From a virus, in UHGV virus genome UHGV-0225830: a DNA stretch of 13,800 bases; one strand, written 5' to 3'. Position numbers and translations under genes: made by a program. The notes under the pieces were generated by a model that was given only the letters and a program-made list of their open reading frames with translations, had not been told where the DNA came from and made no database searches. Positions 10,666 through 12,531 of this stretch are shown piece by piece; the stretch's first letter is position 1, and every line of letters begins with the position of its first letter.

Positions 10666-11256
10666 ATGGCCGAACGTTGGACTAAAGAAGGTATTATTGA
10701 ATCAAAAACAGATTTAGAGGGTGGGTACGTGAACGACCCTGACGATAATGGTGGGGAAACCTGTCACGGGGTAACACTGACAACTGCACGCGAATACGGG
10801 TACAAAGGAAGAATGAAAGATCTGACCCGTGCGCAAGCGTTTGATATTTACGATCGTGGTTGGTGGAAGAAACTTAAACTCGATGAGATTTTCGCTATCT
10901 CGCCGATACTCGCAGACCGGATGTTTGATTTTGGTATTAACTCTGGCCGTGTTAACTGTGTGAAATCATTACAACGTATTCTCAACGTTTTAAATAACGA
11001 AGGGAAACTTTACGCAGATATTGACACCGACGGTGGCATGGGCCCTAAAACGCTAGGTGCCCTGAATGCTTATCTGAATTACCGTAAAGGTGAGGGATTA
11101 GGCATCTTAATCTTTGCGTTAATCTCACACCAGGTAACCTACTACACAGAAATCTCCGAAAAGCGTAAGAAGAATGAAAAATTCGCTTACGGCTGGTACG
11201 GACGCGTGTACAGGGAAATGCCGGATTATGTAGTGAAGGCGGGGTTAGTAAAATGA
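10666..11256 (+). CDS. Peptidoglycan hydrolase: GH108-type N-acetylmuramidase domain with C-terminal PG_binding_3-like domain (putative endolysin)
   Basis: ATG 10666 preceded by GAGGAG (10651-10656). N-terminal EGGYVNDPDDNGGETCHGVT contains the EGGY motif characteristic of GH108; the C-terminal half (GINSG..., DGGMGPKTLGALNAY, FAYGWYGRV) matches the PG_binding_3 pattern usually fused to GH108. Confidence 0.85.
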   Translation: MAERWTKEGIIESKTDLEGGYVNDPDDNGGETCHGVTLTTAREYGYKGRMKDLTRAQAFDIYDRGWWKKLKLDEIFAISPILADRMFDFGINSGRVNCVKSLQRILNVLNNEGKLYADIDTDGGMGPKTLGALNAYLNYRKGEGLGILIFALISHQVTYYTEISEKRKKNEKFAYGWYGRVYREMPDYVVKAGLVK

Positions 11257-11357
11257 ATTGGTTTGCTAAACTCTTAGCACTATTGTGGAAAGCGTTAACG
11301 TCTGGACGGAAACGTAAAGACGAAAAGCGTGGGTTCGAATTTTTCTGGTTTCTATAA
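11253..11357 (+). CDS. Small ORF (34 aa) overlapping the muramidase stop; possible small amphipathic or membrane-active peptide
   Basis: ATG 11253 overlaps TGA 11254-11256 (ATGA); MNWFAKLLALLWKALTSGRKRKDEKRGFEFFWFL has a hydrophobic N-terminus, a basic centre and an aromatic C-terminus. Below the ORF-track size cut-off and has a weak SD, so it could be spurious. Confidence 0.35.
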   Translation: MNWFAKLLALLWKALTSGRKRKDEKRGFEFFWFL

Positions 11358-11372
11358 GGGAAGGTGTGGGTA

Positions 11373-12038
11373 ATGGAGAAGCTTCAATATAAACGTTTAG
11401 ACAATAAGTGGTTTGTATTAACGGAGGATTACCATTATCCGTTTACGTTACGCGAGATTTATCACGACCACGTACACTTAGACCGTGCGGTTTATTTAAC
11501 GGGTGTATTGCCTGACACACAACTGTGGTTAACAGCACCGAAAGGGTTCGTTACCGATTTAGCGTCAATTCCTGATCACCTCCAGGGAATTTTCCATCCT
11601 GACGGACCGTGGGCACCTGCGGCCTGTATTCACGACTTACTCTATCAAAAATGCAACACGGAGCGTAGCTATCCCATGACACCGGGTGGTAACGTTTCGC
11701 GTTTTATCGATAAAGAGTTCTCTGACTTAACTTTCCTGCGTATTATGCAGTCGTTGGAAATCTCGCCTTATATCTGCCAAACATTTTATAAGGCCGTTGT
11801 TGAATTCGGCTGGGATGCCTACGTAGATCCTAATGCAAAGCCATCCTACAACACTAACGCGTTTCGTACGTTAGATTACAATCGAAACTATTTATTCGTT
11901 CGCGAGTTTAAGGAACCTGCAATCCCTGACCACGAACGTATTGATATCACCACAGATTGTCCCGTTAATGTCAAATACCTGAACATTAAACGGCCATTTC
12001 TGTCTGGGAGGGAAGATGTTTCATCCAAATCCGAGTAA
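11373..12038 (+). CDS. DUF1353-like protein (221 aa from ATG 11373)
   Basis: GGGAAGGTG at 11359-11367 is followed by ATG 11373; the track start GTG 11364 lies within the SD. Motifs GFVTDLASIP and AACIHDLLY resemble the conserved TDGASIP and HD motifs I recall for DUF1353. Confidence 0.6.
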   Translation: MEKLQYKRLDNKWFVLTEDYHYPFTLREIYHDHVHLDRAVYLTGVLPDTQLWLTAPKGFVTDLASIPDHLQGIFHPDGPWAPAACIHDLLYQKCNTERSYPMTPGGNVSRFIDKEFSDLTFLRIMQSLEISPYICQTFYKAVVEFGWDAYVDPNAKPSYNTNAFRTLDYNRNYLFVREFKEPAIPDHERIDITTDCPVNVKYLNIKRPFLSGREDVSSKSE

Positions 12039-12531
12039 CTTTAAACTCAGAGAGTTAGTACCACAGTCCTATATTGCCAAATACGGCGATTCCGCAATTC
12101 GGTTTATGAATCCGTTGTTAATGATCTCCCTACAACAGATTCGTAACCGTTTCGGCAGAATGGTGATTAACTCAACTGCCGCACAACAGCGCGGACTAAG
12201 AACCTTAGATTTCTTTATTAATCAAGAAAAGCCTAAGGGTGGTAGTTATAAACAACGTGCGTTGCAGCTTTACGCCGATTCAGGAAGTCAACACAAATTC
12301 GGTAACGCCATTGATGCAACGTTGTTGGATAGCACCGTAAAACAGGTTCACGACTATATCGCTGCTAACCCTGACGAGTTTCCGTTCATTCACTTTATTG
12401 AATGTGACATCAGTTGGTTGCACATCGACGTTCGTAACCAGCCTAACATTACTTTCTGGTCACCAAATCGTGGTACTGTGAAAGTTGTTAAGCAAAAACC
12501 AATCGATTGGAGCGCCTTAGTCGATATTTAA
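12016..12531 (+). CDS. Zinc peptidase of the M15 (Peptidase_M15_3 / DD-carboxypeptidase-like) fold; putative cell-wall peptidase
   Basis: ATG 12016 preceded by GGGAGGG (12006-12012); overlaps the upstream gene by 23 nt. SQHKFGNAIDA matches S-x-H-x-x-G-x-A-x-D and WLHIDVR matches the H-x-D-x-R zinc-ligand motifs of this fold. Confidence 0.7.
   Translation: MFHPNPSNFKLRELVPQSYIAKYGDSAIRFMNPLLMISLQQIRNRFGRMVINSTAAQQRGLRTLDFFINQEKPKGGSYKQRALQLYADSGSQHKFGNAIDATLLDSTVKQVHDYIAANPDEFPFIHFIECDISWLHIDVRNQPNITFWSPNRGTVKVVKQKPIDWSALVDI

What the first reader, a model, noticed from the sequence alone, without database searches (positions are those of the whole stretch)
10666..12531. Four-gene cell-wall module with two hydrolases of different bond specificity and no recognisable holin or spanin
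A GH108-type muramidase with peptidoglycan-binding domain (EGGY motif) is followed by an overlapping 34-codon ORF, a DUF1353-like protein and an M15-fold zinc peptidase (SxHxxGxAxD, HxD). The last two genes overlap by 23 nt and a terminator follows. None of the four products has the transmembrane segments expected of a holin, and no Rz/Rz1-like pair is visible. Either the holin and spanins are elsewhere, or one hydrolase is not the lysis enzyme (for example virion-associated, for entry), or lysis is triggered unconventionally (signal-anchor-release endolysin or a small membrane-active peptide).
Basis: partly seen in the sequence, partly recalled or inferred. Interest (0 to 1): 0.6.

Follow-up and report, generated by a model that had tools for sequence, protein, structure and literature searches.

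The report
Jumbo-phage lysis operon with a phospholipase
This is a four-gene operon of a Salmonella-type giant phage that encodes a cell-wall sugar cutter, a tiny cationic peptide, a predicted membrane-lipid-cutting enzyme (mislabelled in databases as a tail chaperone) and a zinc peptide cutter, so the phage probably attacks both wall and membrane when it bursts its host.

Summary
All four ORFs, both overlaps (ATGA; 23 nt) and a downstream terminator are present, and none of the products has a transmembrane segment.

The window comes from a relative of Salmonella jumbo phage SPN3US, and the module corresponds to SPN3US gp156-gp158.
- Gene 1 is a GH108 + PG_binding_3 muramidase, a close homolog of the typhoid-toxin muramidase TtsA (PDB 6V40, E 1.7e-43).
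- Gene 4 is a zinc peptidase of the M15 (LAS) superfamily. This rests on its motif, its homologs and its fold, not on a direct Pfam hit.
The family's founding member, TtaP, is an experimentally shown phospholipase A2. The His-Asp/Asp catalytic residues are invariant here and in 46 diverse phage homologs.
- The 34-codon ORF is conserved in relatives. It encodes a cationic amphipathic peptide.

SPN3US virion proteomics argues against a virion or entry role for gp156-158. Holin- and spanin-like candidates lie about 40 kb away in SPN3US and in a near-identical metagenomic genome, but none has been tested.

My best reading is a separately transcribed, non-virion envelope-demolition operon that depends on a holin encoded elsewhere, with the phospholipase acting on membranes. 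This function is inferred, not shown. It would be a new variant of a known kind. Interest is moderate.

The parts
10608..10628 (+). GC-rich hairpin followed by a T-run (terminator-like), ending the upstream head-protein gene array and marking the start of a separate transcription unit.
   Evidence: Terminator scan. A hairpin plus T-run sits at the same position, with a different sequence, in L008, SPN3US, SPAsTU and phiEaH2.
10666..11256 (+). Soluble GH108 N-acetylmuramidase with a C-terminal PG_binding_3 domain. It is a TtsA/Sen1395-like endolysin and the homolog of SPN3US gp156. The predicted catalytic Glu is E18 of the EGGY motif.
   Evidence: Pfam 5.8e-23 and 5.1e-16. PHROG 315 'endolysin' 1.1e-42. 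PDB 6V40 (TtsA) 1.7e-43 and 6V3Z (Sen1395) 2.8e-43. No TM or SAR segment.
11253..11357 (+). 34-codon ORF encoding a cationic (net +5) amphipathic peptide, MNWFAKLLALLWKALTSGRKRKDEKRGFEFFWFL. Its ATG overlaps the muramidase stop codon (ATGA).
   Evidence: The same-position ORFs in SPN3US, SPAsTU, phiEaH2 (annotated gp076) and L009 share NWF..L..A...AL....R(R/K)KR. Against L008, 14 of 105 nt differ, with 7 synonymous and 3 non-synonymous codon changes and the same length. Hydrophobic moment 0.45. No family hit.
11373..12038 (+). DUF1353 protein, a predicted TtaP-type phospholipase A2 and the homolog of SPN3US gp157. The ORF finder starts it at GTG 11364. Predicted catalytic residues are H87, D88 and D118, numbered from 11373.
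12016..12531 (+). M15/LAS-superfamily zinc peptidase (H93, D100, H136; D138), the homolog of SPN3US gp158. Its start lies 23 nt inside the DUF1353 gene, behind a GGGAGGG Shine-Dalgarno sequence, so translational coupling is likely.
12615..12642 (.). 12-bp-stem hairpin with T-runs on both strands. It acts as a bidirectional terminator between the module and the convergent lipoprotein gene.
   Evidence: Terminator scan, reported on both strands.
12647..13138 (-). Convergent neighbour: a 163-aa predicted lipoprotein (signal peptide ending in lipobox LAGC), the homolog of SPN3US gp159. Whether it belongs to the module is uncertain.
   Evidence: Hydropathy and lipobox. PHROG 9559, unknown function, 2.4e-66. 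49-58% identical to SPN3US, SPAsTU and phiEaH2 proteins at the same position, but absent next to the DUF1353-M15 pair in CR5 and Phobos.

Best explanation
The module is a separately transcribed, non-virion envelope-demolition (lysis) operon of an SPN3US-like jumbo phage, probably expressed late. It encodes four cytoplasmically made, signal-less products: (1) a TtsA-like GH108 muramidase that cuts the glycan strands of peptidoglycan; (2) a 34-residue cationic amphipathic peptide that probably binds membranes; (3) a TtaP-type phospholipase A2 that would turn membrane phospholipids into lysophospholipids and fatty acids; (4) an M15 zinc peptidase, translationally coupled to the phospholipase, that cuts peptidoglycan peptide stems or cross-links.

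None of the products can cross the inner membrane alone, so they most likely wait in the cytoplasm until a holin encoded elsewhere in the roughly 220-240 kb genome opens the membrane. The two wall hydrolases would then dissolve the sacculus, while the phospholipase, and perhaps the peptide, weaken the membranes, plausibly the outer membrane. That would help or replace spanin action.

Shown here: gene structure, family membership, conserved catalytic residues, conservation of the small ORF and flanking terminators. From the literature: absence of the SPN3US homologs from virions. Inferred: expression timing, dependence on a holin, the phospholipase's target membrane, and any role in lysis at all for genes 2-4.
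For: Family and residue evidence is.

PLA2 activity of the DUF1353 founding member TtaP, lost in the D85A mutant, is reported in PMC11525133. Its authors themselves propose outer-membrane perturbation downstream of the TtsA muramidase.

The same gene order (endolysin, small ORF(s), DUF1353, with or without M15) occurs in SPN3US, SPAsTU and phiEaH2 and in IMG/VR relatives L007-L015. A positionally conserved terminator lies upstream.

SPN3US gp156 and gp157 are absent from the virion proteome table I read; gp158 appears only in traces and was judged a contaminant.

Across 46 non-redundant DUF1353 loci in viral contigs, the two ORFs on either side include Peptidase_M15_4 (6), Amidase_3 (3), GH108 (3), M15_3, SLT and Muramidase (1 each), plus Phage_holin_4_1 (6) and GTA_holin_3TM (2). 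A small same-strand TM protein lies directly downstream in 13 of 43 loci, against 12 of 220 distant ORFs (Fisher p 1.3e-5). For example, L017 reads Amidase_3, x, DUF1353, holin.

Fusobacterium phage FNU1 has DUF1353, a hypothetical gene and an amidase in a row.

Holin-like and spanin-like candidates exist elsewhere in SPN3US and in the window-like genome.

M15 homologs are the annotated endolysin of small Vibrio podoviruses.
Against: No experiment links any phage DUF1353 or this M15 family to lysis.

DUF1353 genes are about as often next to tail-fibre genes as to lysis genes (DUF4376 9, phage_tail_N 5, Collagen 4). The neighbourhood alone therefore cannot separate a tail role from a lysis role.

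A ttaP deletion gave no envelope phenotype in S. Typhi, and TtaP overexpression was not overtly toxic in E. coli.

phiEaH2-type phages lack the M15 gene, and CR5/Phobos carry DUF1353-M15 away from any endolysin. The four genes are thus not an obligate unit.

SPN3US-like genomes also encode a signal-peptide SLT next to a 2-TMD protein. That could be the real lysis system.

The spanin-like pair is doubtful: the second partner has a lipobox in SPN3US but no lipobox Cys in the window-like genome.

Late expression is assumed from position, not measured.
Confidence: 0.55

Rival explanations
1. Only the GH108 muramidase is a lysis protein. The DUF1353-M15 pair serves the virion, either as a tail or tail-fibre assembly factor (the database label 'tail assembly chaperone') or as a low-copy, tail-associated entry device that opens the outer membrane and wall at infection.
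For: PHROG 1158 is labelled 'tail assembly chaperone'. DUF1353 genes often follow tail-fibre genes (DUF4376, phage_tail_N, Collagen, Gp53-like_C), and one lies at the end of a prophage just after tail-fibre genes. SPN3US gp158 gave 2-3 spectra in tailed but not tailless particles. In phiVC8 the M15 homolog lies among structural genes. The pair occurs without a neighbouring endolysin in CR5 and Phobos.
Against: gp157 is absent from the SPN3US virion proteome table I read. gp158 was absent from wild-type virions, and its authors judged it non-specific. An invariant His-Asp/Asp catalytic set in 46 diverse homologs, together with the demonstrated PLA2 activity of TtaP, argues for an enzyme rather than a chaperone. 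The 'tail assembly' label traces to annotation, not to any experiment I could find.
Confidence: 0.15
2. The operon is a self-contained, holin-independent lysis device. The cationic amphipathic peptide and/or the phospholipase permeabilise the inner membrane from the cytoplasmic side, releasing the two wall hydrolases. The phospholipase then also destroys the outer membrane, so neither holin nor spanin is needed.
For: A small hydrophobic or amphipathic ORF sits between endolysin and DUF1353 in every relative examined, although its sequence changes: amphipathic in the window, SPN3US and phiEaH2, and a true TM helix in L011-L015 and in extra ORFs of SPN3US and SPAsTU. The peptide has net charge +5 to +7 and hydrophobic moment 0.38-0.52. 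No holin or spanin is annotated anywhere in SPN3US. Only 6 of 45 DUF1353 loci have a lipoprotein ORF within 2.5 kb. TtsA also reaches the periplasm although no holin gene is listed among the five genes of its islet (PMC11525133).
Against: At 34 residues with no full TM span, the peptide is far below any holin I know of (from memory). Many other DUF1353 loci do carry a recognised holin next door. Unannotated membrane-protein candidates exist elsewhere in these genomes. phiKZ shows that 'no holin found' in jumbo phages has previously been an annotation gap. A cytoplasmically active PLA2 would be hard to time.
Confidence: 0.15
3. The real lysis system is the SLT-based set about 40 kb away (secreted SLT, 2-TMD protein, TMD plus periplasmic partner). 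This operon then has another envelope-related job: remodelling the wall or membrane during the long jumbo-phage cycle, releasing material without lysis as in TtsA-type secretion, or acting on neighbouring cells after release.
For: SPN3US gp198 and its L097 homolog carry an N-terminal signal or SAR-like segment and lie two genes from a 2-TMD protein. The closest characterised relatives of genes 1 and 3, TtsA and TtaP, work in toxin export rather than lysis.
Against: RefSeq annotators, PHROG and NCBIfam treat this GH108 class as phage endolysin or holin-associated muramidase. TtsA-type muramidases are described as most often associated with phage release (PMC6996933). Nothing in the window suggests a cargo.
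Confidence: 0.1

Closest known systems
SPN3US gp156-gp157-gp158 (SPN3US_0156-0158) and the same block in Seoulvirus and Erskinevirus jumbo phages
   Same: Same gene order and orientation, the same flanking head-protein array and the same convergent lipoprotein gene. Amino-acid identity to SPN3US is 57.5% for DUF1353 and 77.8% for M15.
   Different: The window has a single 34-codon ORF and almost no spacer where SPN3US and SPAsTU have up to three small ORFs in about 290 nt. In the window DUF1353 and M15 overlap by 23 nt, whereas in SPN3US they are 9 nt apart. phiEaH2 lacks M15. No function has been published for any of these genes.
Typhoid toxin islet proteins TtsA (GH108 muramidase) and TtaP (DUF1353 phospholipase A2)
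   Same: Gene 1 aligns over its full length with the TtsA and Sen1395 crystal-structure sequences (E about 1e-43), including the EGGY Glu and the Thr of the reported triad. Gene 3 belongs to TtaP's family, with the catalytic His-Asp and Asp conserved. A muramidase and a PLA2 are again encoded close together.
   Different: TtsA and TtaP serve toxin export without lysis and are not adjacent to each other; ttaP is co-transcribed with cdtB. The phage PLA2 is 221 aa against 125 aa, with N- and C-terminal extensions and a 16-residue insertion between the catalytic His and Asp. The position of TtsA Asp19 is Asn here, as in Sen1395. I did not recover the TtaP sequence itself; the residue mapping uses a 125-aa Salmonella prophage paralog with the same numbering.
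Canonical multigene lysis cassette (holin, endolysin, i-spanin/o-spanin), e.g. lambda S-R-Rz/Rz1 or phiKZ gp141-gp144
   Same: A clustered transcription unit, presumably late, built around a soluble endolysin, with overlapping genes.
   Different: There is no TMD-bearing holin and no spanin pair in the module. Instead it holds a second wall hydrolase and a lipid hydrolase. phiKZ gp141-143 have no detectable homolog in SPN3US.
Non-spanin outer-membrane disruptors: phage phiKT gp28 'disruptin' (a cationic amphipathic peptide) and mycobacteriophage LysB (a lipid esterase). Both are recalled from memory, not checked here.
   Same: The 34-residue peptide is small, cationic and amphipathic and sits in a lysis cluster. 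The PLA2 would, like LysB, attack the lipid part of the outer envelope enzymatically.
   Different: No sequence relationship was tested. LysB is a serine esterase acting on mycolyl-arabinogalactan, not a PLA2. Neither activity has been shown for the window's proteins.
M15/LAS peptidoglycan peptidases (Streptomyces albus Zn DD-peptidase 1LBU, VanXY/VanY, LdcB, phage T5/RB49/Ply500 L-Ala-D-Glu endolysins)
   Different: The relationship is very distant: 12-22% identity and no direct Pfam hit for the window protein. It has an N-terminal three-helix extension, and its bond specificity is unknown.

Membership tests
GH108 N-acetylmuramidase with PG_binding_3 (TtsA / phage N4 gp61 type) | Matches both Pfam models above their gathering scores | tested here: met
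   PF05838 81.7 bits (cut-off 21.2); PF09374 59.1 bits (cut-off 24.6).
GH108 N-acetylmuramidase with PG_binding_3 (TtsA / phage N4 gp61 type) | Catalytic residues as reported for TtsA (Glu14, Asp19, Thr28; PMC6996933) | tested here: inconclusive
   E18 (EGGY) and T32 align with TtsA Glu14 and Thr28. The Asp19 position is N23, as in Sen1395, whose catalytic domain can replace that of TtsA.
GH108 N-acetylmuramidase with PG_binding_3 (TtsA / phage N4 gp61 type) | Muramidase activity on peptidoglycan | not testable with these tools
   Needs a zymogram or muropeptide analysis.
DUF1353 / TtaP-type phospholipase A2 | Matches Pfam PF07087 above its gathering score | tested here: met
   53.6 bits against 22.5.
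DUF1353 / TtaP-type phospholipase A2 | Catalytic His-Asp pair plus downstream Asp (TtaP H70, D71, D85) | tested here: met
   H87, D88 and D118 are invariant in A2 and A5. They align with H70/D71/D85 of the 125-aa Salmonella DUF1353 protein P0122.
DUF1353 / TtaP-type phospholipase A2 | Helical core resembling group XIV secreted PLA2 (4AUP, 1LWB) | tested here: met
DUF1353 / TtaP-type phospholipase A2 | sn-2 phospholipid hydrolysis | not testable with these tools
   Shown only for TtaP (PMC11525133).
Peptidase M15 / LAS zinc peptidases | Match to an M15 Pfam model | tested here: not met
   The window protein has no hit at E <= 10. However, 17 of 27 homologs hit PF08291 and 13 hit PF13539.
Peptidase M15 / LAS zinc peptidases | Zinc ligands H-x6-D and a C-terminal His | tested here: met
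   H93, D100 and H136 (plus R62, E129, D138) are invariant in 27 homologs. VanX aligns at the SxHxxGxAxD motif.
Peptidase M15 / LAS zinc peptidases | Hedgehog/DD-peptidase fold | tested here: met
Canonical holin-endolysin-spanin cassette | Adjacent small protein with one or more transmembrane domains (holin) | tested here: not met
   No KD >= 1.6 segment in any + strand ORF between 10600 and 12600.
Canonical holin-endolysin-spanin cassette | An i-spanin (N-terminal TMD) followed by or overlapping an o-spanin lipoprotein | tested here: not met
   None in the module. The only lipoprotein is on the opposite strand and has no TMD partner.
SAR (signal-anchor-release) endolysin | Weakly hydrophobic N-terminal SAR domain on the endolysin | tested here: not met
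   The N-termini MAERWTKEGIIESKTDLEGGY (GH108) and MFHPNPSNFKLRELVPQSY (M15) are hydrophilic.
Virion-associated peptidoglycan hydrolase | Reproducible presence in purified virions | tested here: not met
   From the literature on SPN3US homologs only: gp156 and gp157 were not detected, and gp158 was found in traces and judged non-specific. Not tested for this phage itself.
Disruptin-type cationic lysis peptide (phiKT gp28; recalled from memory) | Small cationic amphipathic peptide encoded in a lysis cluster | tested here: met
   34 aa, net +5, hydrophobic moment 0.45 for NWFAKLLALLWKALTSG. Only the physico-chemical resemblance was tested.
Disruptin-type cationic lysis peptide (phiKT gp28; recalled from memory) | Required for outer-membrane disruption in place of spanins | not testable with these tools
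   Needs genetics.

The most novel reading that the evidence does not exclude
Phage DUF1353 proteins are lysis phospholipases. After the holin fires, a PLA2, here perhaps with a cationic amphipathic peptide, dismantles the outer membrane by hydrolysing its lipid. That would be a third solution to the last step of Gram-negative lysis, alongside spanins and disruptin. It would also mean the TtsA/TtaP pair of the typhoid toxin islet is a domesticated copy of such a phage module, which would give TtaP its missing function: outer-membrane release of the toxin.
Probability: 0.25. Interest if true: 0.8.

Novelty: new variant of a known kind. Interest (0 to 1): 0.55.

Why it matters
If the phospholipase acts in lysis, three things follow.
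- A family of more than 5,000 database proteins, mostly labelled 'DUF1353', 'tail assembly chaperone' or 'phage tail protein', would be re-assigned to envelope disruption.
- Enzymatic lipid hydrolysis would join spanin-mediated fusion and cationic peptides as a way to breach the outer membrane. That bears on how SPN3US-type jumbo phages, which have no annotated holin or spanin, lyse their hosts, and on designing phage enzymes that kill Gram-negative bacteria from outside.
- There would be a concrete, testable hypothesis for TtaP, the one typhoid-toxin islet gene with no known biological role.

If it does not act in lysis, the finding reduces to a correctly described, already annotated gene block of SPN3US-like phages.

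Tried and rejected
- Direct Pfam, NCBIfam and PDB sequence searches with the M15-like protein gave nothing usable. A PDB profile hit to '8ye6 A32' (E 0.0036) does not cover the catalytic motif, so I ignored it.
- I looked for phiKZ holin, regulator and spanin homologs (gp141-143) in SPN3US by BLASTP and phmmer and found none. Only the SLT domain of gp144 matched.
- A single-sequence scan for the SPN3US lipoprotein gp205 in viral contigs found only SPN3US itself. I reached the window-like genome through the neighbouring structural protein instead.
- I considered the convergent lipoprotein (12647-13138) as an o-spanin or a functional partner. It has no TMD partner and is absent next to DUF1353-M15 in CR5 and Phobos, so I left it as a neighbour.
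- I considered a role for the PLA2 in dissolving the early-infection membrane vesicle described for chimalliviruses (title seen). The protein is not in virions and the gene lies in a structural/late-type region, so I rejected this.
- The SPN3US gp204/gp205 pair looked like separated spanins, but the L097 homolog of gp205 lacks the lipobox Cys. I therefore list the pair only as a candidate.
- Megablast of the region against phage genomes found only 75% identity over 416 nt, so the phage itself is not in that collection.
- Rfam found nothing in the window.
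Full report
**What is in the sequence**

The first two overlap in ATGA, and the last two overlap by 23 nt. All homologs of the third protein begin with MEKL/MEAL, and the closest relative is 221 aa, so its real start is probably the ATG at 11373, preceded by GGGAAGG.

A terminator-like hairpin (12-bp stem plus T-run) lies at 12615-12642 and reads as a terminator on both strands. A second one lies at 10608-10628, right after the preceding gene. A hairpin plus T-run occupies that same upstream position, with a different sequence, in L008, SPN3US, SPAsTU and phiEaH2. 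The module therefore looks like a transcription unit of its own.

No product has a 19-residue Kyte-Doolittle window of 1.6 or more. Among the recognisable genes of the window, only the reverse-strand 163-aa lipoprotein gene at 12647-13138 has one (lipobox LAGC); the other hits are short ORFs lying inside or antisense to longer ORFs.

**Where it comes from**

The window is not in the phage genome collection at the DNA level; the best match is 75% over 416 nt. At the protein level it is a relative of Salmonella jumbo phage SPN3US (Seoulvirus) and of the Erwinia and Cronobacter jumbo phages phiEaH2, Stratton, CR5 and Phobos.
- The module corresponds to SPN3US_0156, 0157 and 0158, with the same upstream array of head-protein paralogs (DUF7941) and the same convergent lipoprotein gene, 0159.
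- A 220.8-kb IMG/VR contig (IMGVR_UViG_3300045988_113438) carries a 99%-identical DUF1353 gene and near-identical flanks.

**Gene 1: the muramidase**

Pfam gives Glyco_hydro_108 (5.8e-23) plus PG_binding_3 (5.1e-16), and PHROG 315 'endolysin' scores 1.1e-42. Its best solved relatives are 6V40 and 6V3Z (E about 1e-43, full length). According to PMC6996933 these are TtsA, the typhoid-toxin secretion muramidase, and its homolog Sen1395. E18 of EGGY and T32 align with the reported Glu14 and Thr28. The Asp19 position is Asn, as in Sen1395. There is no signal or SAR segment.

**Gene 4: the zinc peptidase**

The protein itself matches no Pfam model even at E <= 10, and a PDB sequence search found nothing. 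The M15 assignment is nevertheless supported by four lines of evidence:
- R62, H93, G96, A98, D100, E129, W134, H136 and D138 are invariant in 27 homologs.
- 17 of those homologs hit Peptidase_M15_3 (best 6.8e-8) and 13 hit M15_4.
- The profile aligns VanX at the SxHxxGxAxD motif.

More distant homologs are the annotated endolysin of phiVC8-type Vibrio podoviruses.

**Gene 3: the part that changes the picture**

The protein is a DUF1353 member (1.8e-14), labelled 'tail assembly chaperone' in PHROGs and RefSeq. The only functional study of this family I found is Gartly et al. 2024 (PMC11525133). It shows that the 125-aa DUF1353 protein TtaP of the typhoid toxin islet is a phospholipase A2. TtaP is distantly related to group XIV secreted PLA2s (1LWB, 4AUP), has catalytic H70, D71 and D85, and loses activity in the D85A mutant.

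In the window protein:
- H87, D88 and D118 (numbered from 11373) are invariant in 27 close homologs and in 46 diverse phage homologs.
- BLASTP to a 125-aa Salmonella DUF1353 protein carrying H70/D71/D85 aligns exactly these residues (36% identity, E 9e-13). The phage protein has a 16-residue insertion between the His and the Asp.

I could not obtain TtaP's own sequence, and the AFDB fold library was unavailable.

**Gene 2: the 34-codon ORF**

It has no family hit, but it is not a chance ORF.
- The near-identical contig keeps it with one substitution. The 95%-related contig L008 keeps its exact length, with 14 of 105 nt changed, of which 7 codon changes are synonymous and 3 are not.
- SPN3US, SPAsTU, phiEaH2 (annotated gp076) and L009 have an ORF at the same place and overlap, sharing NWF..L..A...AL....R(R/K)KR.
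- The peptide has net charge +5 to +7 and an amphipathic core with hydrophobic moment about 0.4-0.5.
- Relatives carry further small ORFs here. One has SGFFKLLRAIFxRRV, and one is a 30-aa single TM helix. More distant Erwinia-type phages (L011-L015) have a 37-50-aa TM peptide instead.

The slot between endolysin and phospholipase therefore always encodes a small membrane-seeking peptide, but its sequence is not conserved across the wider group.

**Is any of it virion-associated?**

In SPN3US virion proteomics, gp156 and gp157 do not appear in Table S4 of Thomas et al. 2016, the virion proteome table I read. gp158 gave 2-3 spectra in tailed particles and none in tailless ones. Ali et al. 2017 found it only in one mutant, not in wild-type virions, and regarded it as non-specifically associated.

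**Are holin and spanins elsewhere?**

No holin or spanin is annotated anywhere in SPN3US. My hydropathy and lipobox scan of the assembled genome finds several candidates:
- a 240-aa SLT transglycosylase with an N-terminal signal-like segment (175058-175780);
- an 86-88-aa 2-TMD protein two genes downstream;
- a cluster of 35-82-aa TM proteins at 171.4-172.1 kb;
- an N-terminal-TMD, coiled-coil, Pro-rich 156-aa protein followed by a 159-aa lipoprotein (lipobox LLTGC) at 180.0-181.0 kb.

The window-like IMG/VR genome has the same set about 40 kb from the module. There, however, the partner of the TMD protein has a signal peptide without a lipobox Cys, which weakens a spanin reading. phiKZ gp141-143 (spanins, holin, regulator) have no detectable homolog in SPN3US. 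The phiKZ study itself shows that a canonical cassette can stay unrecognised in jumbo phages for years (PMC12894885).

**Context of DUF1353 in other phages**

From 80 viral-contig loci I kept 46 non-redundant ones outside the jumbo group.
- Upstream two ORFs: DUF4376 in 9, Peptidase_M15_4 in 6, phage_tail_N in 5, Collagen in 4, Amidase_3 in 3, GH108 in 2 and M15_3 in 1.
- Downstream two ORFs: Phage_holin_4_1 in 6, GTA_holin_3TM in 2, and GH108, SLT and Muramidase in 1 each.
- The ORF directly downstream is a small same-strand TM protein in 13 of 43 loci, against 12 of 220 for ORFs more than three positions away (Fisher p 1.3e-5).
- One lineage reads Amidase_3, x, DUF1353, holin (L017). Fusobacterium phage FNU1 reads DUF1353, x, amidase.
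- Only 6 of 45 loci have a lipoprotein ORF within 2.5 kb.

DUF1353 thus sits at the junction between tail-fibre genes and the lysis cassette. That explains its 'tail' label and is compatible with a lysis role, but it cannot prove one.

**How it most likely works**

I read the module as a separately transcribed, non-virion lysis operon. Two wall hydrolases of different bond specificity (glycan and peptide), a phospholipase A2 and a cationic amphipathic peptide accumulate in the cytoplasm and gain access to the envelope through a holin encoded elsewhere. The phospholipase would then attack membrane lipid, plausibly the outer membrane, helping or replacing spanins.

The authors of the TtaP paper independently favour outer-membrane perturbation downstream of the TtsA muramidase for TtaP, although they found no phenotype. 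The M15 gene's start inside the phospholipase gene, behind a GGGAGGG Shine-Dalgarno sequence, suggests coupled translation. The same overlap is seen in CR5, Phobos and Derbicus.

The steps from 'encodes these enzymes' to 'they act in lysis, in this order' are inference. Confidence is about 0.55. The rivals are a tail or entry role for DUF1353-M15, a self-contained holin-independent device, and a non-lysis envelope function with the SLT set as the true lysis system. They keep about 0.15, 0.15 and 0.1.

**Comparison and novelty**

The gene block itself is already present and annotated in SPN3US-like genomes, so the genes are not new. What I found in no paper of the searchable library is the reading of phage DUF1353 proteins as lysis-cluster phospholipases, or the observation that a TtsA-like muramidase and a TtaP-like PLA2 are neighbours in a phage operon.

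The module fails the membership test for a canonical holin-endolysin-spanin cassette, since neither holin nor spanin is present, and for SAR endolysins. I file it as a new variant of a known kind, a lysis gene cluster with a lipid-hydrolysing component. Interest is moderate (0.55), because the key functional claim is untested.

Noticed in passing
window 12647-13138 (-): A conserved 163-aa predicted outer-membrane lipoprotein (lipobox LAGC, residue after the Cys is not Asp). It is convergent with the module and shares its terminator. It is the homolog of SPN3US gp159, in PHROG 9559 (function unknown), with no Pfam or NCBIfam hit. It is present in SPN3US, SPAsTU and phiEaH2 but not next to DUF1353-M15 in CR5 or Phobos.
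   Followed up: partly
L001 8101-8342 (SPN3US 136082-136323); L003 5812-5996; L012 and L011 around 3800-3990: Relatives carry extra small ORFs between endolysin and DUF1353, in different frames. One has SGFFKLLRAIFxRRV and one is a 30-aa TM helix (DNDDWPKGLMPILLGLMVLTMLV). In L012 the two appear fused into one ORF of about 50 aa. The window's 34-aa peptide ends in RGFEFFWFL, which may be a remnant of the second ORF.
   Followed up: partly
L097 7013-7975 (-) versus SPN3US 180017-180976: An N-terminal-TMD protein is followed by a secreted partner. The partner is a lipoprotein (LLTGC) in SPN3US but has no lipobox Cys in the window-like genome. The pair is either not a spanin pair or is an unusual one.
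   Followed up: partly
SPN3US 175058-176688; L097 11639-13416 (-): An SLT transglycosylase with an N-terminal signal or SAR-like segment lies two genes from a 2-TMD protein. This is a possible second, or the real, endolysin/holin set of these phages, and is unannotated as such.
   Followed up: partly
window 891-1451, 9265-10113, 10127-10603: Three paralogous DUF7941 'virion structural protein' genes, one full length and two covering only the N-terminal half. They belong to the large head-protein paralog array seen in SPN3US gp138-155, all of which were detected in tailless particles.
   Followed up: no
window 93-326 and 343-846: ORFs matching tail-fibre host-specificity and tail-fibre adhesin PHROGs (2056 at 3.6e-16; 1121 at 6.2e-46) sit at the edge of what is otherwise a head-protein gene array.
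   Followed up: no
window 7010-7438 and 8663-9094; 7460-8593: Two paralogous ORFs (PHROG 8484, unknown function) flank a 377-aa ORF with no family hit. The near-identical contig L007 differs from the window by an indel of about 365 nt somewhere between window 7595 and 8760.
   Followed up: no
window 12565-13800 versus L007 5400-8672: Exact 40-mer matches between the window and the otherwise near-identical IMG/VR contig stop just after the M15 gene. The lipoprotein side of the locus is much more diverged than the module itself.
   Followed up: no
L108 3962-5378 (Salmonella prophage end): A 125-aa DUF1353 gene with TtaP-like numbering is the last gene of a prophage. It follows tail-fibre genes, an invertase and three small unannotated ORFs (79, 129 and 130 aa), and lies three genes from the host pldA (outer-membrane phospholipase A1) gene.
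   Followed up: no
window 4363-4761: Weak HNH endonuclease-like ORF (PHROG 9508, E 0.0041) inside the structural region.
   Followed up: no
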